This document shows, piece after piece, positions 1 through 46,630 of a stretch of 64,000 nt of DNA. The stretch is from Escherichia coli (GTDB lineage: Bacteria; Pseudomonadota; Gammaproteobacteria; Enterobacterales; Enterobacteriaceae). The first letter of the stretch is position 1, and every line of letters begins with the position of its first letter. The notes under the pieces were generated by a model. That model had not been told where the DNA came from. It saw only the letters and a list, made by a program, of their open reading frames with translations, and made no database searches. Made by a program: the position numbers and the translations under genes. The stretch is from assembly GCF_013122565.1 (NCBI RefSeq), contig NZ_CP053258.1; one strand, given 5' to 3'.

Positions 1-109
1 AATGAAAGCCGAAGCGCTGGCGATGGGCTTTACCCATGCTGCATGCGGTCCGTTTGTCCGCTCTTCTTACCACGCCGATTTGCAGGCGAAAGGGATGGAA
101 GTTAAGTAA
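1..109 (+). CDS. lipA: lipoyl synthase, C-terminal fragment (gene starts upstream of window)
   Basis: Frame beginning at nt 2 translates to [35 protein letters not shown] then stop at 107-109; recognised as the LipA C-terminus. Confidence 0.85.
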
Positions 110-136
110 TCCTGTAATAATTACTTACATCTGTCT

Positions 137-170
137 GATAAAAAACCCGCTTTTTGAAGCGGGTTTTTTG
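137..170. terminator. bidirectional intrinsic terminator between convergent lipA and tatE
   Basis: aaaaaacccgcttt-ttga-agcgggtttttt: GC stem flanked by an A-run and a T-run (coordinates approximate). Confidence 0.7.
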
Positions 171-209
171 TATCGAACAAGATATTGAGGGAGCGTCCTG
201 CTCGCCACG

Positions 210-413
210 TCACTCTTTATGAGAGAGCTTTTCAGCCTGAAGATCAACGTCTGCGCCTTTTTTCGCCGCAGCATCATCATCATTCATCGCCTTCTTGAAC
301 CCTTTAATGGCCGCTCCAAGGTCTCCGCCCAGCGTACGTAACTTCTTAGTCCCAAACAGCAGAACGACCAGCGCCGCAACTACCAGCAGTTTGGTAATAC
401 TAATCTCACCCAT
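210..413 (-). CDS. tatE: Sec-independent translocase component TatE (67 aa)
   Basis: Internal ATG of track ORF 210..449; [41 protein letters not shown] is a TatA/E-family sequence with one N-terminal TM helix. Confidence 0.9.
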
Positions 414-541
414 AGATACCTTCTTGACATATAACCGGCAACAGAACACGCCTTAAAAACCAGAGAATATTAACGGTCATTCGACGCGCGCACACAATAG
501 CAATCTGTAACAAGGTGAATCAAGCGCCGAGTAAAAAAACA

Positions 542-1330
542 TCATAATAATTGCGGCGGCGCAAAGCGACGGTTGTTTAAGACGGGCAGTTGCGCGCGCA
601 CCTGACGCACACGTTCGGGCGTCACTTCCGCCATAATGAGTGCAGGCATTTCTGACGCTGCCGCAATGGTGACGCCAAAGGGATCTATAATCCGGCTTTG
701 CCCGATATTTTTGTTCCCGCACTCCCCCGCCGCCACCATATAACAGGTGGTATCCAGCGCACGAGCGGCAAGCAACGTTGACCAGTGATGCTCTTTGAGC
801 GGCCCGCGAACCCAGGCGGCAGGAAGTACCAGGATTTCAGCTCCCTGTAATGCCTGTGCCAGCGCCAGCTCTGGAAAGCGTAAGTCATAACAGGTCATCA
901 GACCGACCTTCATCCCTTCCACCTCCAGTAATGGAGCTATTTCATTACCAGCATCAACATGGCGTGATTCCTGAATGGCAAATGCATCATAGAGATGAAG
1001 TTTGGCATAACGGGCAACGATGTTTCCTGCCTGTAGCGCCACCAGCATATTCCATGCGCGCCCCGGCGTTGAAGGAACATGAATCGTCAGAATTGTCGTC
1101 ATCATGTTACGTTTACTTTCTCGCCGTAAACGTCCGAGGAATTCGCCTTCCAGCAGCTGTGCTGATTTAACCGATAGATCTGCATCATGATCATCGCGCG
1201 CCAGCAATGCTTCCGGCAGGACAAACAGCGATACGTCGTTTTCCGCCGCCTGCGCCATCAACGAGGCACAAATCTCAGCGTTCTTTTCCCACACAGATGT
1301 AACAGCAAACTGTCCTGCAGCAACCAACAT
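542..1330 (-). CDS. ybeM: C-N hydrolase (nitrilase superfamily, Nit1-like amidase), apparently intact
   Basis: Track ORF 542..1336 (264 aa) with no internal stop; start placed at third codon to give 262 aa; position between tatE and crcB matches ybeM. Confidence 0.8.
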
Positions 1331-1422
1331 TGCCACCTCCTGTCAGAGTCGTAAAATTCGCCAACGACGATTATTCGGCGTTACACTTATCACTCATACA
1401 AATCAAATAGCAGGATTTTGCA

Positions 1423-1806
1423 GTGTTACAACTTCTTTTAGCAGTTTTTATTGGCGGTGGTACGGGAAGCGTGGCGAGATGGCTGTTAAGTATGCGATTT
1501 AACCCGCTGCATCAGGCGATTCCGTTGGGGACGCTGGCTGCAAACCTGATTGGGGCATTCATCATAGGAATGGGATTCGCCTGGTTCAGCAGGATGACAA
1601 ACATTGATCCCGTGTGGAAAGTATTAATCACCACCGGATTTTGTGGCGGTCTAACAACCTTCTCAACATTTTCGGCAGAAGTGGTGTTTTTGTTACAAGA
1701 GGGTCGCTTTGGCTGGGCATTACTGAACGTTTTCGTCAACCTTCTGGGGTCTTTTGCCATGACCGCACTGGCATTCTGGCTGTTTTCGGCCTCAACCGCA
1801 CACTAA
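1423..1806 (+). CDS. crcB: fluoride ion channel CrcB/FluC (127 aa)
   Basis: Track ORF 127 aa, hydrophobic four-helix pattern with GGxTTFSTF motif; start codon appears to be GTG. Confidence 0.92.
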
Positions 1807-1809
1807 AGA

Positions 1810-1845
1810 CCAAAAAAAACCCGCTGATTAAGCGGGTTTTGAATT
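1810..1845. terminator. bidirectional intrinsic terminator between convergent crcB and cspE
   Basis: aaaaaaaacccgct-gatta-agcgggtttt hairpin with flanking A and T runs. Confidence 0.7.
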
Positions 1846-1859
1846 CTTGCTGACGTATC

Positions 1860-2069
1860 TTACAGAGCGATTACGTTTGCAGCAGAAGGGCCTTTGGCAC
1901 CGTTAGTGATTTCGAACTCTACACGCTGACCTTCAGCAAGAGTTTTAAAACCATTAGTCTGGATTGCAGAGAAGTGTACGAACACGTCTTTGCTGCCGTC
2001 TTCCGGAGTAATGAAACCGAATCCTTTGGACTCATTAAACCACTTAACGTTACCTTTAATCTTAGACAT
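1860..2069 (-). CDS. cspE: cold-shock-domain protein CspE (69 aa)
   Basis: Internal start of track ORF 1860..2153; [37 protein letters not shown] contains the RNP1/RNP2 cold-shock motifs. Confidence 0.95.
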
Positions 2070-2243
2070 CAAAATTACCTTTACATGAAAAATAGACACA
2101 AATGCTGTGTCGGTTACCAGTACACCAATTGTGGTACGCTTTGTCCAGTGCAACTTTACTAAAAAGTGATAAAAGTCGCGTTATTTTTGATGTTAATTAT
2201 TTTACTCATTGATTTTAAAGAGTTTACTAAAATTTCATTTGTC

Positions 2244-2804
2244 TCAAAACTGAAAGCGCATCCAGGCAAAGTACACATTGCCATTGTTGTAGGTACCCGG
2301 AATGTAGGTCATCTGAAAAGTCACTGGACCATAACCCACGGAGGCCAATGGCAGTAGAACCGGGAGAGGGATGTAATTCCAGTTATCGCGCGCCGTTACG
2401 CCGGCGGTGAATCCCAGACCTAAATGAAAATTTTCATCCGCCAGCGGTCGCCAGGTACTTTCCCATCCGTATCCGGCAATCGGTTCCCATTTGTTCCACG
2501 AGTCCTTAAATGCCATGGCATACAGGCCATGCCAGTTTCCTTTTTCATCCCAACGCGACTGACCAAAACCGCCACCCCACGGTCGCTCGTTATAGCGATC
2601 GGTTTTTTCTTTGTCGTAAGCGAAACGTGCATGCCAGGTGATGGCAGGAATATATAAATCATAATGTTCAGGCTGTTGCCAGGTTTGTGCAATATTTTCT
2701 CTAAACGTTGTCATCCACTCATCTGCGTTAGCAAAAACTTTACCAACGCTGATTAACTGAATAAAAACAAAGGAAAATATAGCGACATATTTACTCACGT
2801 TCAT
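2244..2804 (-). CDS. pagP: lipid A palmitoyltransferase PagP (186 aa)
   Basis: Internal ATG of track ORF 2244..2828 ([25 protein letters not shown] signal peptide); outer-membrane beta-barrel pattern; plus-strand cat at 2802-2804 confirms the ATG. Confidence 0.92.
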
Positions 2805-3284
2805 TTGTGACCATAAAACATTTATCAAAAATCTACTACTAGCATAGCAAAGCTACAATTAACATAACCTTAATAGCTCCAACATAAAGAATAATCTGAA
2901 TAGCTGCTCTATTTATTTCCGCTTGTTTAAGTTAAATATTTCCGCGCATCGATTTAAAATGATACATCGTTTTCTGCGATGGGAATAGTCATAAAAGAAA
3001 AAGCAAGTTATTACTGATAACAAAATGCAATCAAGAAAAAAATGACTTATTTTTTAATAAGATACAAAAAATTATCTTAACAAAGAATATATTATATATC
3101 GTCAACCCACGCCCATTATAGATTATTTTTTGAGCACACAACCGCAGCTAACACCATTGCAATTAACAAATTTGCATCAATCTACCATCAATTTACACAC
3201 ATTATTATGTGATAATTGCCAACTGTTAAATATGCGTTTTGTTATCTATGTATAAAAACAGCAACTTCAATGTCTTAATGGCAG

Positions 3285-3310
3285 TTTTTCTTGATTTTAA
3301 TCAGCATTCA
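3285..3310 (+). promoter_or_regulatory. FNR-like site candidate upstream of dcuC
   Basis: ttgattttaatcag resembles TTGAT-N4-ATCAA with one mismatch, about 90-100 bp upstream of the dcuC ATG. Confidence 0.3.
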
Positions 3311-3393
3311 CCGCCAATTTATTGGGCATATTTTTTCCTTAAGTTTTAGGAATTTTTTATTATTTACTTTGGGGCCTGGAGACAGGAAAAATT

Positions 3394-4779
3394 ATGCTGA
3401 CATTCATTGAACTCCTTATTGGGGTTGTGGTTATTGTGGGTGTAGCTCGCTACATCATTAAAGGGTATTCCGCCACTGGTGTGTTATTTGTCGGTGGCCT
3501 GTTATTGCTGATTATCAGTGCCATTATGGGGCACAAAGTGTTACCGTCCAGCCAGGCTTCAACAGGCTACAGCGCCACGGATATCGTTGAATACGTTAAA
3601 ATATTGCTAATGAGCCGCGGCGGCGACCTCGGCATGATGATTATGATGCTGTGTGGCTTTGCCGCTTACATGACCCATATCGGCGCGAATGATATGGTGG
3701 TCAAGCTGGCGTCAAAACCATTGCAGTATATTAACTCCCCTTACCTGCTGATGATTGCCGCCTATTTTGTTGCCTGTCTGATGTCTTTGGCCGTCTCTTC
3801 CGCAACCGGTCTGGGCGTTTTGCTGATGGCTACTCTGTTTCCGGTGATGGTAAACGTTGGTATCAGTCGTGGCGCAGCAGCTGCCATTTGTGCCTCCCCG
3901 GCGGCGATTATTCTCGCACCGACTTCAGGGGATGTGGTGCTGGCGGCACAGGCTTCCGAAATGTCGCTGATTGACTTCGCCTTCAAAACGACGCTGCCTA
4001 TCTCAATTGCTGCAATTATCGGCATGGCGATCGCCCACTTCTTCTGGCAACGTTATCTGGATAAAAAAGAGCACATTTCTCATGAAATGTTAGATGTCAG
4101 TGAAATCACCACCACTGCTCCTGCGTTTTATGCCATTTTGCCGTTCACGCCGATCATCGGTGTACTGATTTTTGACGGTAAATGGGGTCCGCAATTACAC
4201 ATCATCACTATTCTGGTGATTTGTATGCTGATTGCCTCCATTCTGGAGTTTCTCCGCAGCTTTAATACCCAGAAAGTTTTCTCTGGTCTGGAAGTGGCTT
4301 ATCGCGGGATGGCAGATGCGTTTGCTAACGTGGTGATGCTGCTGGTTGCCGCTGGGGTATTCGCTCAGGGGCTTAGCACCATCGGCTTTATTCAAAGTCT
4401 GATTTCTATCGCTACCTCGTTTGGTTCGGCGAGTATCATCCTGATGCTGGTATTGGTGATTCTGACAATGCTGGCGGCAGTCACGACCGGTTCAGGCAAT
4501 GCGCCGTTTTATGCGTTTGTTGAGATGATCCCGAAACTGGCGCACTCTTCCGGCATTAACCCGGCGTATTTGACTATCCCGATGCTGCAGGCGTCAAACC
4601 TGGGCCGTACCCTTTCGCCCGTTTCTGGCGTAGTCGTTGCGGTTGCCGGGATGGCGAAAATCTCACCATTTGAAGTCGTAAAACGCACCTCGGTGCCGGT
4701 GCTTGTTGGGCTGGTGATTGTTATCGTTGCTACAGAGCTGATGGTGCCAGGAACGGCAGCAGCGGTCACAGGCAAGTAA
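3394..4779 (+). CDS. dcuC: anaerobic C4-dicarboxylate transporter DcuC (461 aa)
   Basis: Track ORF 461 aa, polytopic membrane protein; ATG at 3394 preceded by a ggagacagg SD-like sequence. Confidence 0.95.
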   Translation: MLTFIELLIGVVVIVGVARYIIKGYSATGVLFVGGLLLLIISAIMGHKVLPSSQASTGYSATDIVEYVKILLMSRGGDLGMMIMMLCGFAAYMTHIGANDMVVKLASKPLQYINSPYLLMIAAYFVACLMSLAVSSATGLGVLLMATLFPVMVNVGISRGAAAAICASPAAIILAPTSGDVVLAAQASEMSLIDFAFKTTLPISIAAIIGMAIAHFFWQRYLDKKEHISHEMLDVSEITTTAPAFYAILPFTPIIGVLIFDGKWGPQLHIITILVICMLIASILEFLRSFNTQKVFSGLEVAYRGMADAFANVVMLLVAAGVFAQGLSTIGFIQSLISIATSFGSASIILMLVLVILTMLAAVTTGSGNAPFYAFVEMIPKLAHSSGINPAYLTIPMLQASNLGRTLSPVSGVVVAVAGMAKISPFEVVKRTSVPVLVGLVIVIVATELMVPGTAAAVTGK

Positions 4780-38098: not shown

Positions 38099-39087
38099 TT
38101 TACGTCTCTCGCCGATTAATCATCACCTGTTTGCTGTTGGTTTCCGCCTGTGTGGTTGCAGGTATCTGGGGATTACGCAGCGGTGCCGTCACGCTGGAAA
38201 CCTCGCAGGTATTCGCCGCGCTGATGGGCGATGCGCCGCGCAGTATGACGATGGTGGTCACCGAATGGCGTTTACCACGAGTGCTGATGGCGCTGTTGAT
38301 TGGCGCGGCGCTGAGCGTCAGCGGCGCGATTTTTCAGTCGCTGATGCGTAACCCGCTCGGCAGCCCTGACGTAATGGGCTTTAACACCGGGGCGTGGAGC
38401 GGCGTGCTGGTGGCGATGGTGCTGTTTGGTCAGGATCTGACGGCTATCGCGCTGGCAGCAATGGCGGGCGGCATTGTCACCTCGCTGTTGGTCTGGCTGC
38501 TCGCCTGGCGTAACGGTATCGACACCTTTCGGTTGATTATTATCGGCATCGGCGTTCGCGCCATGCTGGTGGCCTTTAATACCTGGCTGTTGCTGAAAGC
38601 GTCTTTAGAAACGGCGCTAACAGCGGGTTTGTGGAATGCAGGCTCGCTCAACGGCCTGACGTGGGCAAAAATCTCGCCTTCCGCCCCCATCATTATATTG
38701 ATGCTCATTGCCGCTGCCTTACTGGTACGCCGGATGCGCTTGCTGGAGATGGGCGATGATACCGCCTGCGCGCTGGGCGTCAGCGTCGAGCGTTCGCGTC
38801 TGTTAATGATGCTGGTTGCAGTGGTGCTTACCGCTGCGGCAACGGCGCTTGCCGGGCCGATTTCCTTTATTGCTTTAGTCGCGCCGCACATTGCCCGACG
38901 CATTAGCGGCACCGCTCGCTGGGGGCTGACCCAGGCGGCGCTGTGCGGAGCGCTGTTACTGCTGGCGGCCGATCTCTGCGCCCAACAACTGTTTATGCCG
39001 TATCAACTTCCGGTTGGCGTCGTTACCGTCAGCCTCGGCGGTATTTACCTTATCGTCTTGTTAATTCAGGAGTCTCGCAAAAAATGA
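38095..39087 (+). CDS. fepG: ferric enterobactin ABC transporter permease FepG (330 aa)
   Basis: Track ORF 330 aa; 4-nt overlap with fepD. Confidence 0.92.
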   Translation: MIYVSRRLIITCLLLVSACVVAGIWGLRSGAVTLETSQVFAALMGDAPRSMTMVVTEWRLPRVLMALLIGAALSVSGAIFQSLMRNPLGSPDVMGFNTGAWSGVLVAMVLFGQDLTAIALAAMAGGIVTSLLVWLLAWRNGIDTFRLIIIGIGVRAMLVAFNTWLLLKASLETALTAGLWNAGSLNGLTWAKISPSAPIIILMLIAAALLVRRMRLLEMGDDTACALGVSVERSRLLMMLVAVVLTAAATALAGPISFIALVAPHIARRISGTARWGLTQAALCGALLLLAADLCAQQLFMPYQLPVGVVTVSLGGIYLIVLLIQESRKK

Positions 39088-39899
39088 CCGAATCAGTAGC
39101 CCGTTTGCGCGGCGAACAGTTAACCCTGGGATATGGCAAATATACCGTTGCGGAAAATCTGACTGTAGAAATTCCTGATGGTCACTTCACGGCAATTATC
39201 GGACCAAATGGCTGTGGTAAATCCACGTTACTGCGTACCTTAAGCCGCCTGATGACGCCTGCTCACGGGCATGTCTGGCTGGATGGCGAGCACATTCAAC
39301 ATTACGCCAGTAAAGAAGTTGCACGCCGGATTGGTCTGTTGGCGCAAAATGCCACCACGCCGGGCGATATCACCGTGCAGGAGCTGGTGGCGCGTGGACG
39401 TTATCCGCATCAACCGCTGTTTACCCGCTGGCGCAAAGAGGATGAAGAAGCGGTAACGAAAGCGATGCAGGCCACGGGAATAACTCATCTGGCAGATCAA
39501 AGCGTGGATACCCTTTCTGGCGGACAACGCCAGCGAGCGTGGATCGCGATGGTGCTGGCCCAGGAAACGGCAATTATGCTGCTCGACGAACCCACGACCT
39601 GGCTGGATATCAGTCATCAGATTGATCTACTGGAACTGTTAAGCGAACTGAACCGCGAGAAAGGCTATACCCTGGCGGCGGTGCTGCACGATCTTAATCA
39701 GGCCTGTCGTTACGCCAGCCATTTGATTGCATTGCGGGAAGGGAAAATTGTTGCTCAGGGAGCGCCGAAGGAGATTGTCACTGCTGAACTGATTGAGCGC
39801 ATTTATGGTCTGCGATGCATGATCATTGACGATCCGGTAGCCGGAACGCCGCTTGTGGTGCCGCTCGGACGAACGGCACCTTCAACCGCAAATAGTTAA
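39084..39899 (+). CDS. fepC: ferric enterobactin ABC transporter ATPase FepC (271 aa)
   Basis: Internal ATG at 39084 (MTESVARLRGEQLTLGY) of track ORF 38943..39899; Walker A GPNGCGKST and LSGGQRQR signature. Confidence 0.93.
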   Translation: MTESVARLRGEQLTLGYGKYTVAENLTVEIPDGHFTAIIGPNGCGKSTLLRTLSRLMTPAHGHVWLDGEHIQHYASKEVARRIGLLAQNATTPGDITVQELVARGRYPHQPLFTRWRKEDEEAVTKAMQATGITHLADQSVDTLSGGQRQRAWIAMVLAQETAIMLLDEPTTWLDISHQIDLLELLSELNREKGYTLAAVLHDLNQACRYASHLIALREGKIVAQGAPKEIVTAELIERIYGLRCMIIDDPVAGTPLVVPLGRTAPSTANS

Positions 39900-41029
39900 A
39901 CTAAGTGGTCTGCCATCATGGCATCCTGTTTTCTGGATGCCATCGCATGGCGCAACAGCACACCACCACAAGCCACCATCCCGCCGATCAACGCGGAAAG
40001 GATCACAATAATCGCCTTACCCGGACCGTCTTTTTTCACTGGCAATGACGGGCTTAACTGATATTTAAACGGCGTAAAATTCACATCGTTGACATTTGCT
40101 TTTGTTAATTGCTCGACAAGATACTGACGATTACGTAATTCACCATTCAGTTCCGCAACGTCAGTAACCGCTTTTTCAATTTCCAGTTTGCGTTCAATAC
40201 CGTCTGCGCCGAGAGAAATAGAGAAATCGGGGTCATCTTTAACGGCCTGACCATTACTGTATACGGGCTTTTTAATTCCTGCCGCGTTGGCAATGTCGAG
40301 TGAATAATTGAGGCGCTGAATGTTTGCATCAAGTTGATTTTTCGTTTTAATGCGATCCTGAGCCAGTTTTTCTTTTTCAAACTGGGTTTTGATCTCCAGC
40401 TTATTACGGACGTTTTCTAGCGACTCTTTCACCACCAACGCAGAGATATAATCGATATACCCGCTCAAAACGGTCTGCGCCTCTTCACTGGTTGGCGCGG
40501 TAAAACTTAGCGTCCAGGAGGTATACAGTGACGGTTCATCTTTTTTCTTACTGGCATTGTCATCAACCGCTTTCATTTTTTCGCTCAATGCGACAATTGC
40601 GCGATGCAAATCCAGTTCGTCGATTTTCGCCTCTTTTAATTGGTCCATCACATAAGGTGATGAACGCAGGTACTCTTCCAGCAAGCTAATTGACTGAAAT
40701 TTCTTGATAAACAGATTAAATACACCGCCACGGTCGATATTAACATCGAGATCAAGAACGCGGAGTTTGGTAAAGGTTTTCTCCAGGTCCTGCCACTGAA
40801 TGGCTTCGGCGGGAGTAATGACGGCTGAGCTGGTCCATTTTTGCGGCAGGATGAAAGAGATCAGCAAGCCTGCGCAGGCAAATGCAAAAACGACTGCCAT
40901 GACCGTTTTTTTGGCCCGCCATAAAACTTCGATTAGATTAAGTAAATCAATTTCATTATTACTGGGCGATGCCAGAGGATACTCAGGAAAATGAGCGTCA
41001 CTTCCCTGTTTAATATTCAGTGATGACAT
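39896..41029 (-). CDS. fepE: polysaccharide co-polymerase (Wzz-like) FepE (377 aa)
   Basis: Internal Met (MSSLNIKQGSDAHFPEYPLASP) of track ORF 39896..41080; two TM helices flanking a coiled-coil periplasmic domain. Confidence 0.9.
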   Translation of the reverse strand: MSSLNIKQGSDAHFPEYPLASPSNNEIDLLNLIEVLWRAKKTVMAVVFAFACAGLLISFILPQKWTSSAVITPAEAIQWQDLEKTFTKLRVLDLDVNIDRGGVFNLFIKKFQSISLLEEYLRSSPYVMDQLKEAKIDELDLHRAIVALSEKMKAVDDNASKKKDEPSLYTSWTLSFTAPTSEEAQTVLSGYIDYISALVVKESLENVRNKLEIKTQFEKEKLAQDRIKTKNQLDANIQRLNYSLDIANAAGIKKPVYSNGQAVKDDPDFSISLGADGIERKLEIEKAVTDVAELNGELRNRQYLVEQLTKANVNDVNFTPFKYQLSPSLPVKKDGPGKAIIVILSALIGGMVACGGVLLRHAMASRKQDAMMADHLV

Positions 41030-41194
41030 GGGTATAACCTGAAAATGAGTCCAATAGGGGAAAATCTCCACGGCGCTCACTTTACCAGTTGGTGAGAATT
41101 ATCCGAAGCTGAAGTTTGTAAATTCCTTCCACTGAATGAAACATTCACTCTATTTAAGAGAAATGACCAACAAACATATAAATTAAATAAATGA

Positions 41195-41229
41195 TTAACC
41201 CATAATTATTTCCTGTAATTATGGGTTAA
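41195..41229. repeat. perfect 14-bp-arm inverted repeat 15 nt downstream of the entF stop
   Basis: ttaacccataatta-tttcctg-taattatgggttaa; followed on the minus strand by an AT-rich tract. Confidence 0.6.
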
Positions 41230-41243
41230 TAGATAATATTAAT

Positions 41244-44200
41244 TTACCTGTTTAGCGTTTCGCGAATAATCGGCCCAATTTTTTCAAACGCCCCTGGAGA
41301 GATAATATCCACATGCGCACAATCCTGACGATAGATATCCAGCCCGGCTATCCACGGCGACCAGGCGCGTTCGGGGCTCATACCTTCCTGAAGCGTACGT
41401 TCAGCAACAAACAGCGTCGCTCTACCATCAAACGGTACGCTATGAGCAGTCGTCAGCAGGCGCACAGCATCAGCGTAGTTGCCTTCAATGGTGGTAAACA
41501 ACTCCGTTGAAGTACTTCCCTGCTGTGCCGCCAGGAAGGCCTCGCGTTCGCGGTTAATCTCCGCCAGCACTTCCGGGTCCAGGCCATTAGCCTCTTTTTC
41601 CTGCCAGTTTTGCGTTTCTGGCGGCCAGGTATCCAGCAAGCCAAGAAATGCCACCTGTTCGCCACGGGCACGCAGTCGCGCCGCAATACCCTGCGCCAGC
41701 GTACCGCCCAGCGAATAACCCAGCAGGTAATAAGGGCCGTGCGGTTGTTGCTCAAGTAACGTTGCCAGATGCGCTTCGCAGACTTCATCCAGATTTGCCG
41801 CGGTCTGCATGGGGCCATTGGGGCGCGGCGACTGAATGCCGATAATCGACCATTGTGGATCGAGATAACGCGAGAGCACGCTGAACTGCCAGGCAAAACC
41901 GGACGCAGGATGGAAACAAAACAGCGTCGGGCCATTACCTTCACGCAACGGCAGAATGGTTTCGAATCCCATGCGCCGGGAGCTGTCCTCTTCACCATCA
42001 ATAATCGTTGCCAGTTTGGCGACGGTTGATGCGACCATCACCTGCCCCGGCGTCACCTGACGGGCAAACTGCCGACTTAACTGCGCTGCCAGTTTCATTG
42101 CCAGTAGCGAATGACCGCCTAGCGCGAAGAAATCAGCATCGGCATCCTGCACGTCACAACCCAGCAACGACGCGAATGCCGCGGCGATAATCGTTTCACT
42201 GCCCGCTTTCGGCGCACGCCCCGGCGCTTGTGCTTTCAGTTCAGGCAACGGTAAGGCTTTGCGATCCAGCTTGCCGTTGGCGCTAAGAGGTAACTGTGGA
42301 AGTTGCAGCAGAACCACGGGCACCATATGTGGTGGCAATGTTTCGCGAAGCTGCGCCTGTAATGCGCTGGTATCCAACGGCAGGCCCGATTGCGACACCA
42401 GATAGCCCACCAACTGACGCGCATCACCACCGGTGGCTGCCGCCTGGTTAATCACACAGGCGTGGGTAACGGCTTGTTCGACACCCGGCAGCGCCTGCAT
42501 CACGCGATCGATTTCGCCCAGTTCGATACGCTGCCCGCGAATTTTTAGCTGATCGTCACTGCGCCCGAGGTATTCCACCGCGCCGTTATCGAGCCAGCGG
42601 GCAACGTCTCCGGTACGGTACATCCGTTCACCTGGGGCAAAAGGATCGGCAATAAAGCGGCTGGCGGTCAGATCGGGTCGTCCAAGATACCCCTGCGCCA
42701 GTTGAATGCCGGTGAGATAGAGATCACCCGCCACACCCGGCGGCACCGGATGCATCATCGCATCGAGAATGCGCAGGCCCGTATTCCACACCGGATAACC
42801 AATCGGCACACTGCTGCCGCGTACCTGTGCCAGTTCCTCGCCAAAGGCCGGATACCAGCTCACATCTACCGCTGCTTCCGTCGGGCCATACAGATTATGC
42901 AACGGCGCGCCGGTTAACTGTTGCCATTCGCGGCATAAATCAGCCGGTAAGGCTTCACCACTACAGAAAACCTGTTTCAACGTCGCGCAACTCTGGCGAG
43001 CGGTTTGCGGCGTCAGCGATGCAACAAATGCCGCCAGCATCGACGGCACAAAGTGCGTGGTCGTTACGCCATATTCGGCAAAGAATTGCTGCATAGCGAG
43101 CGGGTCGCGGTGCGCTTCCGGTTCAGCCATCACCAGTTTCGCCCCGGCAATAAACGGCCAGAAAAACTCCCACACCGAGACATCAAAACTGCACGGCGTT
43201 TTTTGGGCAACGACATCTTCGCCTGTAAGCGGATAATGATTTTGCATCCACAACAGGCGGTTGACGATAGCCGTCTGCCCGACCATTACCCCTTTCGGCC
43301 TGCCGGTGGAGCCAGAGGTAAAGATGATATAAGCCGTGTGATGCGGTTGTGAAAGTTGCAGCGGCGCACTGCCCTGCGGTGTAAGCGGGGCGTTATAGCA
43401 AAGGCTGGTTAAATCTGGAACATCAACAAAGCGCGGCAGTTGATCGTCGGTGGTGATTAACAGCGACGGACGCGCATCTTCCAGCATCATTTTCAGGCGA
43501 TCGTCCGGATAGCCGGTATCCAGCGGTAGCCAGGCCGCACCAGCTTCAACAATCGCATGTAGCGCCAGGGTCAAAAAGACCGAGCGCGGTAATGCCACCG
43601 CCACGCTGTCCCCTGGTTTAACGCCGTGCTCACGCAGCAGATTCGCCAGCGCCACCACCTGCTCGCGCATTTCCCGATAGCTGAACTGGTAACGCGCATC
43701 TGCCAGCGCCGGAGCATCCGGTGTTTTTGCCGCTTGTTCTGCCACCAGCGCGCTAAGCGTGGTTTCTGGAATCTCAACCTGAGTGGCGTTGATCTGCGCC
43801 AGCTGCGCGTATTCACCTGGCAGCATAATATCGACATCGCCGCACAACAGCGCCGGATCCGCGGCGAATTGGGCGATCAGCATTTTCAGGCGTTCAGCAT
43901 GCTGGATTAACGTTGGCTCAGCGTAACGCTGTTTATTGGCGAGGATTTCAATACTCAAATCACCGTGTTCATCCGGGAACAGGGCCAGTTCAAGGTCATT
44001 AACCGGACCGGTTGCCAGGGTATGGGTTTGCGCCTGAACATCAGGAATATCCAGTTGGTAATCAAAGACCTTGATATTGAGTACCGGACCAAACAGGGGT
44101 TCATCACCTGCCGCTCGCCCGCTGTCACGGACAATTTGTTCGGCATCGTAACGTTGATGGCGACGCATTTTTTTCAGTTGAGCCGCCAGTCGGGTTGCCA

Positions 44201-45125
44201 GTTCCGGCAGCGTTTCTTGCGCCGCAATATGAATACCCAACGGCAAAACGTTGAGCACGGGTCCGGTAGCCGTCAGCGCCGCCGAGCCCAGTCGACGCAT
44301 AAAGATAAATCCGGCAGCGTAGTCCATGCGATTGCACAATCGCCCCAGCCACAAAGCCGCCAGCGCAAGGGCTAAATCGGTACGCTGCACACCTGAAAGT
44401 TGCGTAGCCAGCTGGCGGAATTCCCCGTCAGTAAATTCCAGTTTCAGGCGCAGAATATCTGCCGAAGCGCTGCGCCCCGGTAAAGGTGCCGGAGAAAGTG
44501 ACGCGGGCGGCGGCAATTGACGACGCTGTTCCGCCCAGAATGCCGCATCACGCTGCCAGGCTTCGCTTTCGCGATATTGCTGGTACTCTTCCACTACATC
44601 AGCGAAAGGCGTAAACGGCGAAGCAGGCGTTGGTTCGCCACGCAGCCATGCGCAGTAAATATTGGCGATCTGGCGGGTAATGGCCGGGAAACTGAAGCCA
44701 TCGACCAGCAAATGGTGATAACGCTGATACCAGTACCAGCGGTTATCCGCCACCTGTATCAACTGATGAAAGACCAGTGGTTTACCGCTATCGACGCGCA
44801 GATCTTGTTGCAAATCCGCCTGCATTAATGCCTGCGCAGTACCGTGCGGATCAATGTTGGTTCGCAGGTCGATAATTTCTGGCAGTTCGAACGTCAGCGC
44901 ATCATCGACCCACTGCCAGACTTCGCCGTTATCTTCCGTAAAACGCATCCGCAGCGTATCTGCTTGCGCTAATCCGGCAACCACCGCGCGGGCCAGTAAT
45001 GGCGCATCAACCTCTCCGGTTAACTCAACGTAATGCGCCACGCTCCAGGCGGAGGGTAAATCCGACAGTTTTTCTGCCATCCAGATGCCGGGCTGTGCGG
45101 CGACCAAAGGTAAATGCTGGCTCAT
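41244..45125 (-). CDS. entF: enterobactin non-ribosomal peptide synthetase EntF (C-A-PCP-TE, 1293 aa)
   Basis: Internal ATG (MSQHLPLVAAQPGIWMAEKL) of track ORF 41244..45263; cat at 45123-45125 on the plus strand; adenylation, carrier (GGHSLLAMKLAAQ) and thioesterase (GYSLGG) motifs. Confidence 0.95.
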   Translation of the reverse strand: MSQHLPLVAAQPGIWMAEKLSDLPSAWSVAHYVELTGEVDAPLLARAVVAGLAQADTLRMRFTEDNGEVWQWVDDALTFELPEIIDLRTNIDPHGTAQALMQADLQQDLRVDSGKPLVFHQLIQVADNRWYWYQRYHHLLVDGFSFPAITRQIANIYCAWLRGEPTPASPFTPFADVVEEYQQYRESEAWQRDAAFWAEQRRQLPPPASLSPAPLPGRSASADILRLKLEFTDGEFRQLATQLSGVQRTDLALALAALWLGRLCNRMDYAAGFIFMRRLGSAALTATGPVLNVLPLGIHIAAQETLPELATRLAAQLKKMRRHQRYDAEQIVRDSGRAAGDEPLFGPVLNIKVFDYQLDIPDVQAQTHTLATGPVNDLELALFPDEHGDLSIEILANKQRYAEPTLIQHAERLKMLIAQFAADPALLCGDVDIMLPGEYAQLAQINATQVEIPETTLSALVAEQAAKTPDAPALADARYQFSYREMREQVVALANLLREHGVKPGDSVAVALPRSVFLTLALHAIVEAGAAWLPLDTGYPDDRLKMMLEDARPSLLITTDDQLPRFVDVPDLTSLCYNAPLTPQGSAPLQLSQPHHTAYIIFTSGSTGRPKGVMVGQTAIVNRLLWMQNHYPLTGEDVVAQKTPCSFDVSVWEFFWPFIAGAKLVMAEPEAHRDPLAMQQFFAEYGVTTTHFVPSMLAAFVASLTPQTARQSCATLKQVFCSGEALPADLCREWQQLTGAPLHNLYGPTEAAVDVSWYPAFGEELAQVRGSSVPIGYPVWNTGLRILDAMMHPVPPGVAGDLYLTGIQLAQGYLGRPDLTASRFIADPFAPGERMYRTGDVARWLDNGAVEYLGRSDDQLKIRGQRIELGEIDRVMQALPGVEQAVTHACVINQAAATGGDARQLVGYLVSQSGLPLDTSALQAQLRETLPPHMVPVVLLQLPQLPLSANGKLDRKALPLPELKAQAPGRAPKAGSETIIAAAFASLLGCDVQDADADFFALGGHSLLAMKLAAQLSRQFARQVTPGQVMVASTVAKLATIIDGEEDSSRRMGFETILPLREGNGPTLFCFHPASGFAWQFSVLSRYLDPQWSIIGIQSPRPNGPMQTAANLDEVCEAHLATLLEQQPHGPYYLLGYSLGGTLAQGIAARLRARGEQVAFLGLLDTWPPETQNWQEKEANGLDPEVLAEINREREAFLAAQQGSTSTELFTTIEGNYADAVRLLTTAHSVPFDGRATLFVAERTLQEGMSPERAWSPWIAGLDIYRQDCAHVDIISPGAFEKIGPIIRETLNR

Positions 45126-45340
45126 TGTGCCTCCTGCAACTGGGTGAAATTCGACGGTGTCAGAGTACGCCAGTGGGTTTCCAGCCACTGCTGGCAGGAC
45201 GCCTGTGACTGCGGCTGACACACAACGTCCCAGCCTGCCGGTAAGGCGCATTGTTGCGGCCACAGACTGAATTGCCCCTGCGCATTGCGCAAAATGTAAA
45301 ACGCTCCCTGCGGATCATCGAAGGGATTACTGAATGCCAT
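45122..45340 (-). CDS. ybdZ: MbtH-like protein (72 aa)
   Basis: Internal Met (MAFSNPFDDPQGAFYILRNAQGQFSLWP) of track ORF 45122..45346; 4-nt overlap with entF start. Confidence 0.9.
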   Translation of the reverse strand: MAFSNPFDDPQGAFYILRNAQGQFSLWPQQCALPAGWDVVCQPQSQASCQQWLETHWRTLTPSNFTQLQEAQ

Positions 45341-46545: not shown

Positions 46546-46589
46546 ACCATAACCCCATGTTTACTGTGCAATTTTTCATTGATTGCAGA

Positions 46590-46630
46590 AATATATTGAT
46601 AATATTATTGATAACTATTTGCATTTGCAA
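46590..46630. promoter_or_regulatory. Fur box(es) in the divergent fes / fepA control region
   Basis: ttgataatattattgataactatttgc, overlapping Fur-consensus hexamers, within the 242-bp fes-fepA intergenic region. Confidence 0.6.

What the first reader, a model, noticed from the sequence alone, without database searches (positions are those of the whole stretch)
41195..41229. Perfect 14-bp inverted repeat immediately after entF
ttaacccataatta-N7-taattatgggttaa is a perfect palindrome 15 nt past the entF stop, followed on the transcribed strand by an AT-rich tract and then the fepE start region. It could be the terminator of the fes-ybdZ-entF transcript, a processing site, or a binding site for a dimeric regulator of fepE.
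Basis: seen in the sequence. Interest (0 to 1): 0.35.

Follow-up and report, generated by a model that had tools for sequence, protein, structure and literature searches.

The report
Leaky terminator hairpin between entF and fepE
The palindrome is real and is most likely an ordinary RNA hairpin terminator that ends most transcripts of the iron-regulated enterobactin operon fes-ybdZ-entF before they reach the neighbouring O-antigen length gene fepE.

Summary
The inverted repeat exists and is slightly longer than reported: 15-bp perfect arms (41194-41208 / 41216-41230) with a 7-nt loop, starting 13 nt after the entF stop on the minus strand. It is the longest perfect short-loop palindrome in the window.

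A homologous hairpin sits between entF and fepE in Escherichia, Salmonella, Citrobacter and Intestinirhabdus:
- 93% of cells are paired, against 36-55% in register-shifted controls.
- 8 of 15 pairs show compensatory double changes.
- There are 33 G-U wobbles on the entF-sense strand and only 2 on the other.
- A U-rich tail always follows.

The selected object is therefore an RNA hairpin in the entF transcript, not a DNA operator. It is single-copy, has no Rfam match and no Fur box.

Published TPM data show fepE at 0.7-7% of entF when Fur is deleted. This fits an efficient but leaky terminator. Leakage is about 4-9 times higher in strain W, which carries the window's allele with an interrupted U-tract, than in K-12.

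Verdict: an ordinary intrinsic-terminator-like element, well supported by comparison, but its 3' end has not been mapped. Interest is low.

The parts
41244..41246 (-). entF stop codon (TAA)
   Evidence: ORF 41244..45263 on the minus strand. The RefSeq entF CDS ends at the equivalent base in strain LHM10-1.
41216..41230 (-). 5' arm of the RNA hairpin (AUUAACCCAUAAUUA)
   Evidence: Perfect 15-nt complement of 41194-41208. Pairs are maintained by compensatory changes in 20 orthologues.
41209..41215 (-). Hairpin loop (CAGGAAA)
   Evidence: Loop sequence and length vary among orthologues, from 4 to 11 nt.
41194..41208 (-). 3' arm of the RNA hairpin (UAAUUAUGGGUUAAU)
   Evidence: In K-12 this arm runs straight into UUUUUU.
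41180..41193 (-). U-rich tail (CAUUUAUUUAAUUU). Expected transcript 3' ends lie roughly at 41185-41192.
   Evidence: The terminator scan reports stem plus tail on the minus strand. A U-rich tail is present in all 20 orthologues, with 6-10 U in the 11 nt after the G-C block; the window allele is the poorest at 6/11. The 3' end position is inferred, not mapped.
41030..41179 (-). Rest of the entF-fepE spacer. It contains a strongly conserved block with the motif TTCGGATAATTCT (41095-41107), the likely independent fepE promoter and leader.
   Evidence: Near-invariant across Escherichia. The motif is conserved about 70-75 nt upstream of the fepE ATG in many genera. Its function is inferred.
39896..41029 (-). 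fepE (wzz-fepE), the downstream gene insulated by the hairpin
   Evidence: ORF. RefSeq annotates it as 'LPS O-antigen length regulator Wzz(fepE)'.

Best explanation
The palindrome encodes an A/U-rich RNA hairpin (15 bp, 7-nt loop, about -15 kcal/mol) followed by a U-rich tract, at the 3' end of the Fur-regulated fes-ybdZ-entF transcript. It acts as a Rho-independent, efficient but leaky terminator. RNA polymerase leaving entF transcribes the hairpin, and the hairpin forms while the weak rU/rA-rich hybrid (CAUUUAUUU) is still in the enzyme. Most transcripts are then released before the separate fepE promoter and leader region. A few per cent read through, which gives fepE a small Fur/iron-dependent component. 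The window carries an allele (AUUAACCC...GGGUUAAU) in which a compensated T:A flip makes the stem perfect but interrupts the U-run found in K-12 (GGGUUUUUUAUUUGUUU). This probably makes the terminator leakier. Shown here: the hairpin, its conservation and covariation on the sense strand, its single-copy locus-specific nature, and the expression drop in published data. Inferred: that the drop occurs at the hairpin, by intrinsic termination.
For: Structure and significance:
- Perfect 15-bp stem; RNA fold z = -4.9.
- The terminator scan flags it on the minus strand only.

Conservation and covariation:
- A homologous hairpin lies between entF and fepE in 20 aligned sequences from four genera.
- 93.3% of cells are paired, against 36-55% when the partner is slid by 1-3 columns.
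- 8 of 15 pairs have double changes, and 0 of 500 shuffles reach any measure.
- RNAalifold independently predicts the 13-bp core.
- 33 G-U wobbles on the entF-sense strand against 2 A-C. The covariance model scores the sense strand at 43-63 bits and the antisense strand at 20-36 bits.
- Within E. coli the third stem pair flips T:A/A:T as a linked pair: 7 of 7 and 9 of 9 sequences.

Tail and functional replacement:
- A U-rich tail is present in every orthologue.
- The Citrobacter amalonaticus group has fepE but a non-homologous GC-rich hairpin plus a T-run at the same place. The function is kept while the sequence is replaced.

Published expression (TPM, Dataset 3 of PMC10164565):
- In delta-fur, entF/fepE is 902/6.8 in MG1655, 1326/23 in W3110 and 1535/105 in W.
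- That study's transcription-unit lists give fes, ybdZ, entF only, with no Fur peak between entF and fepE.
- fes/ybdZ/entF are induced without fepE in PMC4145685 and PMC6049941.
- The response is graded in PMC8910356: log2FC -5.0, -5.0, -3.1, -1.7.
- Strain W has the window's allele and shows about 4-9 times more apparent read-through than K-12.
Against: - The stem has only 3 G-C pairs, and the U-tract in this window is interrupted (5 U in the first 8 nt), so it is not a textbook strong terminator.
- A rough d'Aubenton-Carafa-type score, with the formula recalled from memory, was negative. It was equally negative for an obvious terminator at 140-169, so it was uninformative.
- No 3'-end mapping for entF could be retrieved.
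- The TPM drop could also reflect different mRNA stability, or Rho/H-NS effects in the AT-rich spacer.
- Databases list fes-ybdZ-entF-fepE as one operon.
- The simple terminator scan finds about as many sites as in shuffles (2 against 1.7).
Confidence: 0.74

Rival explanations
1. The hairpin is not itself a terminator. It is a 3'-end protective or processing structure: transcription stops further downstream (by Rho or by collision with H-NS-bound AT-rich DNA), or the RNA is cut by RNase E in the AU-rich tract. 3'-5' exonucleases then trim back to the stable stem, which stabilises entF mRNA.
For: Sense-strand covariation fits any RNA-level role equally well. The stem is A/U-rich and the U-tract in this allele is interrupted. 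Trimming back to stem-loops is described for Rho-dependent transcripts in E. coli (title and abstract of PMC6061677). An AU-rich single-stranded tract follows the stem.
Against: A U-rich tail immediately 3' of the stem is conserved in all 20 orthologues, and this tail is also kept where the hairpin has been replaced by an unrelated GC-rich one. A pure exonuclease block would not need it. The first 120 nt after the entF stop are C-poor (8% C, 12-19% G), which is unlike a rut site.
Confidence: 0.15
2. The palindrome is a double-stranded DNA operator for a dimeric transcription factor, such as Fur or a fepE-specific regulator, that controls fepE.
For: Perfect dyad symmetry. The central half-sites CATAAT/ATTATG are nearly invariant and are spaced 11 nt apart throughout Escherichia and Citrobacter. 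The palindrome lies about 165 nt upstream of the fepE ATG.
Against: Outer and inner stem positions change by compensatory pairs rather than being conserved. Wobble pairs are 33:2 in favour of one strand, which a DNA site would not produce. Half-site spacing falls to 10, 8 and 4 nt in Intestinirhabdus and Salmonella. The best Fur-box match in the spacer is 11 of 19, against 15-16 of 19 at real Fur sites elsewhere in the window. No Fur ChIP-exo peak is listed there. The conserved promoter-like block lies about 90 nt further downstream.
Confidence: 0.04
3. The hairpin is a passive relic of the horizontally acquired fepE cassette, for example the terminator of a donor gene or an insertion-junction palindrome, with no present function.
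For: The hairpin family occurs only where a fepE of >=64% identity directly follows entF. It is absent from fepE-less genera, which carry REP-like or GC-rich hairpins instead. The spacer and fepE have low G+C (0.31-0.45, against 0.55-0.60 in entF and fepC).
Against: A relic would not keep 93% pairing through 8 compensated positions across four genera. It would also not be replaced by another terminator-like hairpin at the same place. Origin by co-transfer and present function as a terminator are compatible.
Confidence: 0.05

Closest known systems
Rho-independent (intrinsic) terminators of enterobacteria
   Same: An RNA hairpin lies a few nt after a stop codon and is followed directly by a U-rich tract on the transcribed strand. 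It is unidirectional here, and the stem is maintained by compensatory substitutions. RNA abundance drops sharply across it.
   Different: The stem is long and A/U-rich: 3 G-C pairs of 15, about -15 kcal/mol. In this allele the U-tract is interrupted (UUAAUCAUUUAUUU). Termination has not been mapped or measured directly.
Leaky intra-operon terminators or attenuators that set unequal expression of adjacent genes (general knowledge, e.g. the terminator upstream of rpoBC in the rplJL-rpoBC operon)
   Same: Most transcripts stop. A small fraction reads through and couples the downstream gene weakly to the upstream promoter. Here fepE rises 10- to 50-fold in delta-fur while staying at 0.7-7% of entF.
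   Different: No factor or signal that modulates read-through is known or suggested here. The downstream gene appears to have its own conserved promoter-like region.
3'-end stem-loops that protect Rho-dependent transcripts after exonucleolytic trimming (Dar & Sorek 2018, PMC6061677)
   Same: A conserved stable stem-loop at the mRNA 3' end.
   Different: Here a U-rich tail is conserved and the downstream RNA is C-poor. Both point to intrinsic termination.
REP/BIME extragenic palindromes, which occupy the equivalent position after entF in Enterobacter, Klebsiella and Kluyvera
   Same: A palindromic element in the spacer after entF.
   Different: This hairpin is single-copy per genome, AT-rich and locus-specific. 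REPs are GC-rich and present in hundreds of copies.

Membership tests
Rho-independent (intrinsic) terminator | Stable RNA hairpin on the transcribed strand just downstream of the coding region | tested here: met
   15-bp perfect stem starting 13 nt after the entF stop. Hairpin dG is -15.3 kcal/mol. Context fold z = -4.9.
Rho-independent (intrinsic) terminator | U-rich tract (about 7-9 nt) immediately 3' of the stem | tested here: met
   It meets the scan's minimum (5 T in 8) on the minus strand. This is weak in the window (CAUUUAUU). Orthologues have 6-10 U in the 11 nt after the G-C block, and K-12 has UUUUUUAUUUGUUU.
Rho-independent (intrinsic) terminator | G+C-rich stem, especially near its base (typical, not obligatory) | tested here: not met
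   Only 3 consecutive G-C pairs. The 5 basal pairs are A-U. This argues for a weak or leaky terminator rather than a strong one.
Rho-independent (intrinsic) terminator | Structure under selection at the RNA level on the sense strand | tested here: met
   93.3% paired. 8 of 15 pairs have double changes, and 0 of 500 shuffles reach this. Slid controls give 36-55%. 33 G-U against 2 A-C. RNAalifold agrees.
Rho-independent (intrinsic) terminator | Transcript 3' ends at the U-tract; factor-independent release in vitro | not testable with these tools
   Only indirect evidence: published TPM falls 15- to 130-fold from entF to fepE in delta-fur strains. No 3'-end table containing entF could be retrieved.
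Fur box / dimeric-regulator DNA operator | Match to the 19-bp Fur consensus GATAATGATAATCATTATC | tested here: not met
   The best match in the spacer is 11 of 19. True Fur regions in the same window reach 15-16 of 19.
Fur box / dimeric-regulator DNA operator | Conservation of base identity and half-site spacing, symmetric on both strands | tested here: not met
   Compensatory changes at 8 pairs. Strand-asymmetric wobbles, 33 against 2. Spacing is 11, 10, 8 and 4 nt across genera.
REP/BIME or other repeated extragenic palindrome | Many copies per genome | tested here: not met
   Median 1 place per E. coli genome, highest 2. The covariance model finds one site per locus and no other in the 64-kb window.
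Rho-dependent terminator | C-rich, G-poor unstructured rut region downstream of the stop codon | tested here: not met
   The first 120 nt of the spacer RNA have 8% C and 12-19% G.
Any curated Rfam family | Covariance-model match above the gathering score | tested here: not met
   Only chance-level hits (E >= 0.007, far below the gathering scores) in 40000-42000.

The most novel reading that the evidence does not exclude
Natural alleles of this terminator act as a tuning knob that sets how strongly iron starvation (Fur derepression) is passed on to fepE, and so to very-long O-antigen chain production. The window, BL21 and W share an allele with a perfect stem and an interrupted U-tract (UUAAU). 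It lets about 7% of entF transcription into fepE, against about 1% for the K-12 allele (UUUUUU). The compensated T:A flip would then be an adaptive change in terminator strength, not neutral drift.
Probability: 0.2. Interest if true: 0.4.

Novelty: new member of a known kind. Interest (0 to 1): 0.18.

Why it matters
It refines a textbook locus. Databases list fes-ybdZ-entF-fepE as one Fur-regulated operon. The conserved hairpin and the published expression data indicate that it is effectively fes-ybdZ-entF, then a leaky terminator, then a separately promoted fepE. That explains why fepE, an O-antigen chain-length regulator with no role in iron uptake, responds only weakly to iron. It also gives a clean natural example of covariation supporting a terminator stem, with allelic U-tract variation that could be tested for an effect on read-through. 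Beyond that it is an ordinary element.

Tried and rejected
- Rfam scan of 40000-42000 at a permissive E-value gave only chance hits.
- The Fur-box scan of the spacer gave 11 of 19 at best, so I rejected it.
- A repeated-element origin (REP/MITE) was rejected. The hairpin is single-copy in E. coli genomes, and the covariance model finds no second copy in the window or in 80 related loci apart from the orthologous site.
- I looked for experimental 3'-end data for entF in the supplements of PMC7815308, PMC9023263, PMC6061677, PMC12259150, PMC8848933, PMC9122600 and PMC4161252. Either nothing was held or there was no entF entry. The id PMC6814526 is not held.
- The full-text search for entF + fepE + terminator gave nothing relevant.
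- A d'Aubenton-Carafa-type terminator score, with the formula recalled from memory, depended entirely on where stem and tail were delimited. It also scored an obvious terminator (140-169) negative, so I do not use it.
- The sigma-70 scan found no promoter on the minus strand in the spacer. The fepE promoter therefore remains inferred from conservation only.
- I considered a Rho-dependent explanation and set it aside, because the RNA is C-poor.

Full report
**Observation.** The window at 41195-41229 reads ttaacccataatta-tttcctg-taattatgggttaa, as reported.
- The complementarity extends one base on each side. The arms are therefore 15 bp (41194-41208 / 41216-41230) with a 7-nt loop.
- entF runs on the minus strand and stops at 41246-41244. 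fepE (wzz-fepE) starts at 41029 on the same strand. Both assignments come from the ORF list and from RefSeq annotation of near-identical E. coli genomes.
- The window is E. coli chromosome. The 212-nt spacer matches 4201 of 5426 complete genomes at 80-99% identity.
- The palindrome is the longest perfect short-loop inverted repeat in the 64 kb.
- Block shuffles give 0.62 perfect repeats of >=10 bp per window.
- The minus-strand RNA folds far better than shuffles, with z = -4.9.

**Strand and anatomy.**
- On the transcribed (minus) strand the RNA is AUUAACCCAUAAUUA-CAGGAAA-UAAUUAUGGGUUAAU, followed by CAUUUAUUUAAUUUAUAUG.
- The consensus scan reports it as terminator-like on the minus strand only.
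- The hairpin alone is about -15 kcal/mol with only three G-C pairs.
- No Rfam family matches.

**Comparative evidence.** I fetched 80 loci from one genome per species using the EntF C-terminus, and located the entF stop, the best downstream hairpin and any fepE in each.
- A hairpin of the same family (AAACCCAUAAU...AUUAUGGGUUU plus a U-run) is present wherever a close fepE directly follows entF. This covers Escherichia spp., E. albertii, Salmonella arizonae and diarizonae, many Citrobacter, and Intestinirhabdus.
- Genera without fepE carry unrelated REP-like or GC-rich hairpins before the convergent fepC.
- The Citrobacter amalonaticus group has fepE but an unrelated GC-rich hairpin plus a T-run at the same spot. 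Other fepE-bearing lineages (L027, L037, L048, L074) also have unrelated hairpins there.
- On a 20-sequence alignment the 15-pair structure has 93.3% of cells paired, against 36-55% when the 3' partner is slid by 1-3 columns. Eight pairs have changes on both sides, and 0 of 500 shuffles reach any measure.
- RNAalifold independently predicts the 13-bp core.
- Non-Watson-Crick cells are 33 G-U on the entF-sense strand against 2 A-C, which would be G-U on the other strand.
- A covariance model built from the alignment scores the sense strand at 43-63 bits and the antisense strand at 20-36 bits. It finds no other copy in the window or in the 80 loci, apart from a decayed orthologue in L049.
- The selected object is therefore a single-copy, locus-specific RNA hairpin in the entF transcript.

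**Variation within E. coli.** Sixteen E. coli sequences fall into three alleles at the base of the stem:

| Allele | Stem base | Strains |
|---|---|---|
| 1 | AUUAACCC...GGGUUAAU | window, LHM10-1, 88-3493, BL21(DE3), W, A7, Z0117EC0098 |
| 2 | AUAAACCC...GGGUUUAU | O157:H7, O145, S88, 7/2, IMT16316, EC17GD31 |
| 3 | AUAAACCC...GGGUUUUUU | K-12, 103605, 2013C-3492 |

- The 5' U always comes with the 3' A (7 of 7), and the 5' A always comes with a 3' U (9 of 9). This is a compensated flip within the species.
In this allele the flip interrupts the U-run, so the window has the poorest tail of the 20 sequences (6 U in 11, tied with one Citrobacter).
- The 81-nt region is found in 4890 of 5426 genomes, with a median of one copy.

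**Published expression.** Dataset 3 of PMC10164565 gives TPM for wild type and delta-fur in iron-replete medium (method, header).

| Strain | Allele | entF (wt -> delta-fur) | fepE (wt -> delta-fur) | fepE as % of entF in delta-fur |
|---|---|---|---|---|
| MG1655 | 3 | 20 -> 902 | 0.65 -> 6.8 | 0.75% |
| W3110 | 3 | 6.5 -> 1326 | 0.5 -> 23 | 1.7% |
| W | 1 | 5.7 -> 1535 | 5.7 -> 105 | 6.9% |

- That paper's transcription-unit tables list fes, ybdZ, entF without fepE. They show Fur peaks only at the fes/fepA and fepD/entS promoters.
- The best Fur-box match in the spacer is 11 of 19. The Fur dependence of fepE is therefore best explained by a few per cent read-through from the fes promoter.
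- Strain W carries the window's allele. Its roughly 4- to 9-fold higher apparent read-through than K-12 fits the weaker U-tract, but this compares only two lineages.
- Other studies agree qualitatively. fes/ybdZ/entF are induced without fepE in serum (PMC4145685) and under mild pressure (PMC6049941). PMC8910356 shows a graded response of -5.0, -5.0, -3.1, -1.7 log2.
- In Salmonella fepE is reported as PmrA-activated. In K-12 no fepE transcript was detected in rich medium (PMC8129183).

**Mechanism.** The best-supported reading is an intrinsic, leaky terminator at the end of fes-ybdZ-entF that insulates fepE.
- fepE has its own conserved upstream block.
- The spacer and fepE are low in G+C (0.31-0.45, against 0.55-0.60 in the neighbouring genes). 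The hairpin co-occurs with fepE, so it may have arrived with the fepE insertion. That concerns origin, not function.
- Shown: structure, conservation, strand, single-copy status, and the expression step across the spacer.
- Inferred: that the step occurs at the hairpin, by factor-independent termination.

**Rival explanations.**
- A 3'-end-protecting or processing hairpin cannot be excluded. It is less likely because the U-tail is conserved, is retained where the hairpin was replaced, and the downstream RNA is C-poor.
- A DNA operator is disfavoured by compensation, strand asymmetry, variable spacing outside Escherichia and Citrobacter, and the absence of a Fur box.
- A functionless relic is disfavoured by the covariation.

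**What is missing.** I could not retrieve any table of mapped RNA 3' ends that includes entF. The 3' end is therefore predicted (about 41185-41192), not observed.

**Verdict.** This is a real, conserved, ordinary element. It is a new, not individually characterised member of the intrinsic-terminator class, as far as the searchable literature shows. It qualifies the database operon fes-ybdZ-entF-fepE. Interest is low. The only mildly novel angle is allelic variation in the U-tract that may tune iron-dependent read-through into fepE.

Noticed in passing
window 41030-41135 (minus strand), motif at 41095-41107: The fepE-proximal half of the spacer is almost invariant across Escherichia species, more so than the hairpin flanks. 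The motif TTCGGATAATTCT, about 70-75 nt upstream of the fepE ATG, is recognisable in Citrobacter and Salmonella, and in degenerate form in Pseudescherichia and Enterobacter. GATAAT (41103-41098) looks like a -10 element. The nearest TTTACA (41122-41117) is only 13 nt upstream in Escherichia, against 16 nt in Citrobacter sp. MGH106. This might relate to the very low fepE expression in K-12.
   Followed up: partly
window 41131-41149: A second small inverted repeat, GTGAATG-TTT-CATTCAG on the minus strand, lies between the hairpin and the conserved block. It is conserved within E. coli but not in E. albertii or Escherichia sp. E1V33. Its function is unknown.
   Followed up: no
L049 3452-3596 (Citrobacter sp. 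MGH106): A roughly 100-nt insertion carrying a strong GC-rich hairpin (CCCCAGTCACTTA...TAAGTGACTGGGG) sits between the entF stop and the AT-rich hairpin. The AT-rich hairpin has lost its G-C pairs here (30 bits, against 43-63 elsewhere). It may be decaying after functional replacement. This is a single case.
   Followed up: partly
L010, L013, L018 (Citrobacter amalonaticus group), about 20-60 nt after the entF stop: These genomes have fepE but no member of the AT-rich hairpin family. A non-homologous GC-rich hairpin (for example CCUCCGUAAC...GUUACGGGGG) followed by a T-run occupies the same position.
   Followed up: partly
L003 2900-3240 (E. coli P276M): In this strain fepE is annotated as a 5'-truncated pseudogene. 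The hairpin is damaged (AAAACCAUAAUUA...AAUAAUUGGUUUU) and part of the spacer has been replaced.
   Followed up: no
window 39896-39923: fepC (+) and fepE (-) converge and their 3' ends overlap by 4 nt (39896-39899), which leaves no intergenic space. A small terminator-like hairpin plus T-run on the + strand (39911-39923) lies inside the fepE coding region, just after the fepC stop.
   Followed up: no
window 46584-46623: An imperfect 24-nt palindrome rich in GATAAT-like repeats (TGCAGAAATATATTGATAATATTATTGATAACTATTTGCA). It is probably the Fur-box region of the divergent fes/fepA promoters, but I did not verify this.
   Followed up: no
window 140-169: A canonical bidirectional-terminator-like hairpin: AAAAAACCCGCTT-TTTG-AAGCGGGTTTTTT, with 13-bp perfect arms.
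   Followed up: no
window 39000-43000: fepE and the entF-fepE spacer have markedly lower G+C (0.31-0.47) than the flanking entF and fepC (0.55-0.61). This fits horizontal acquisition of fepE into the enterobactin cluster. Many genera have entF directly converging on fepC with no fepE.
   Followed up: partly
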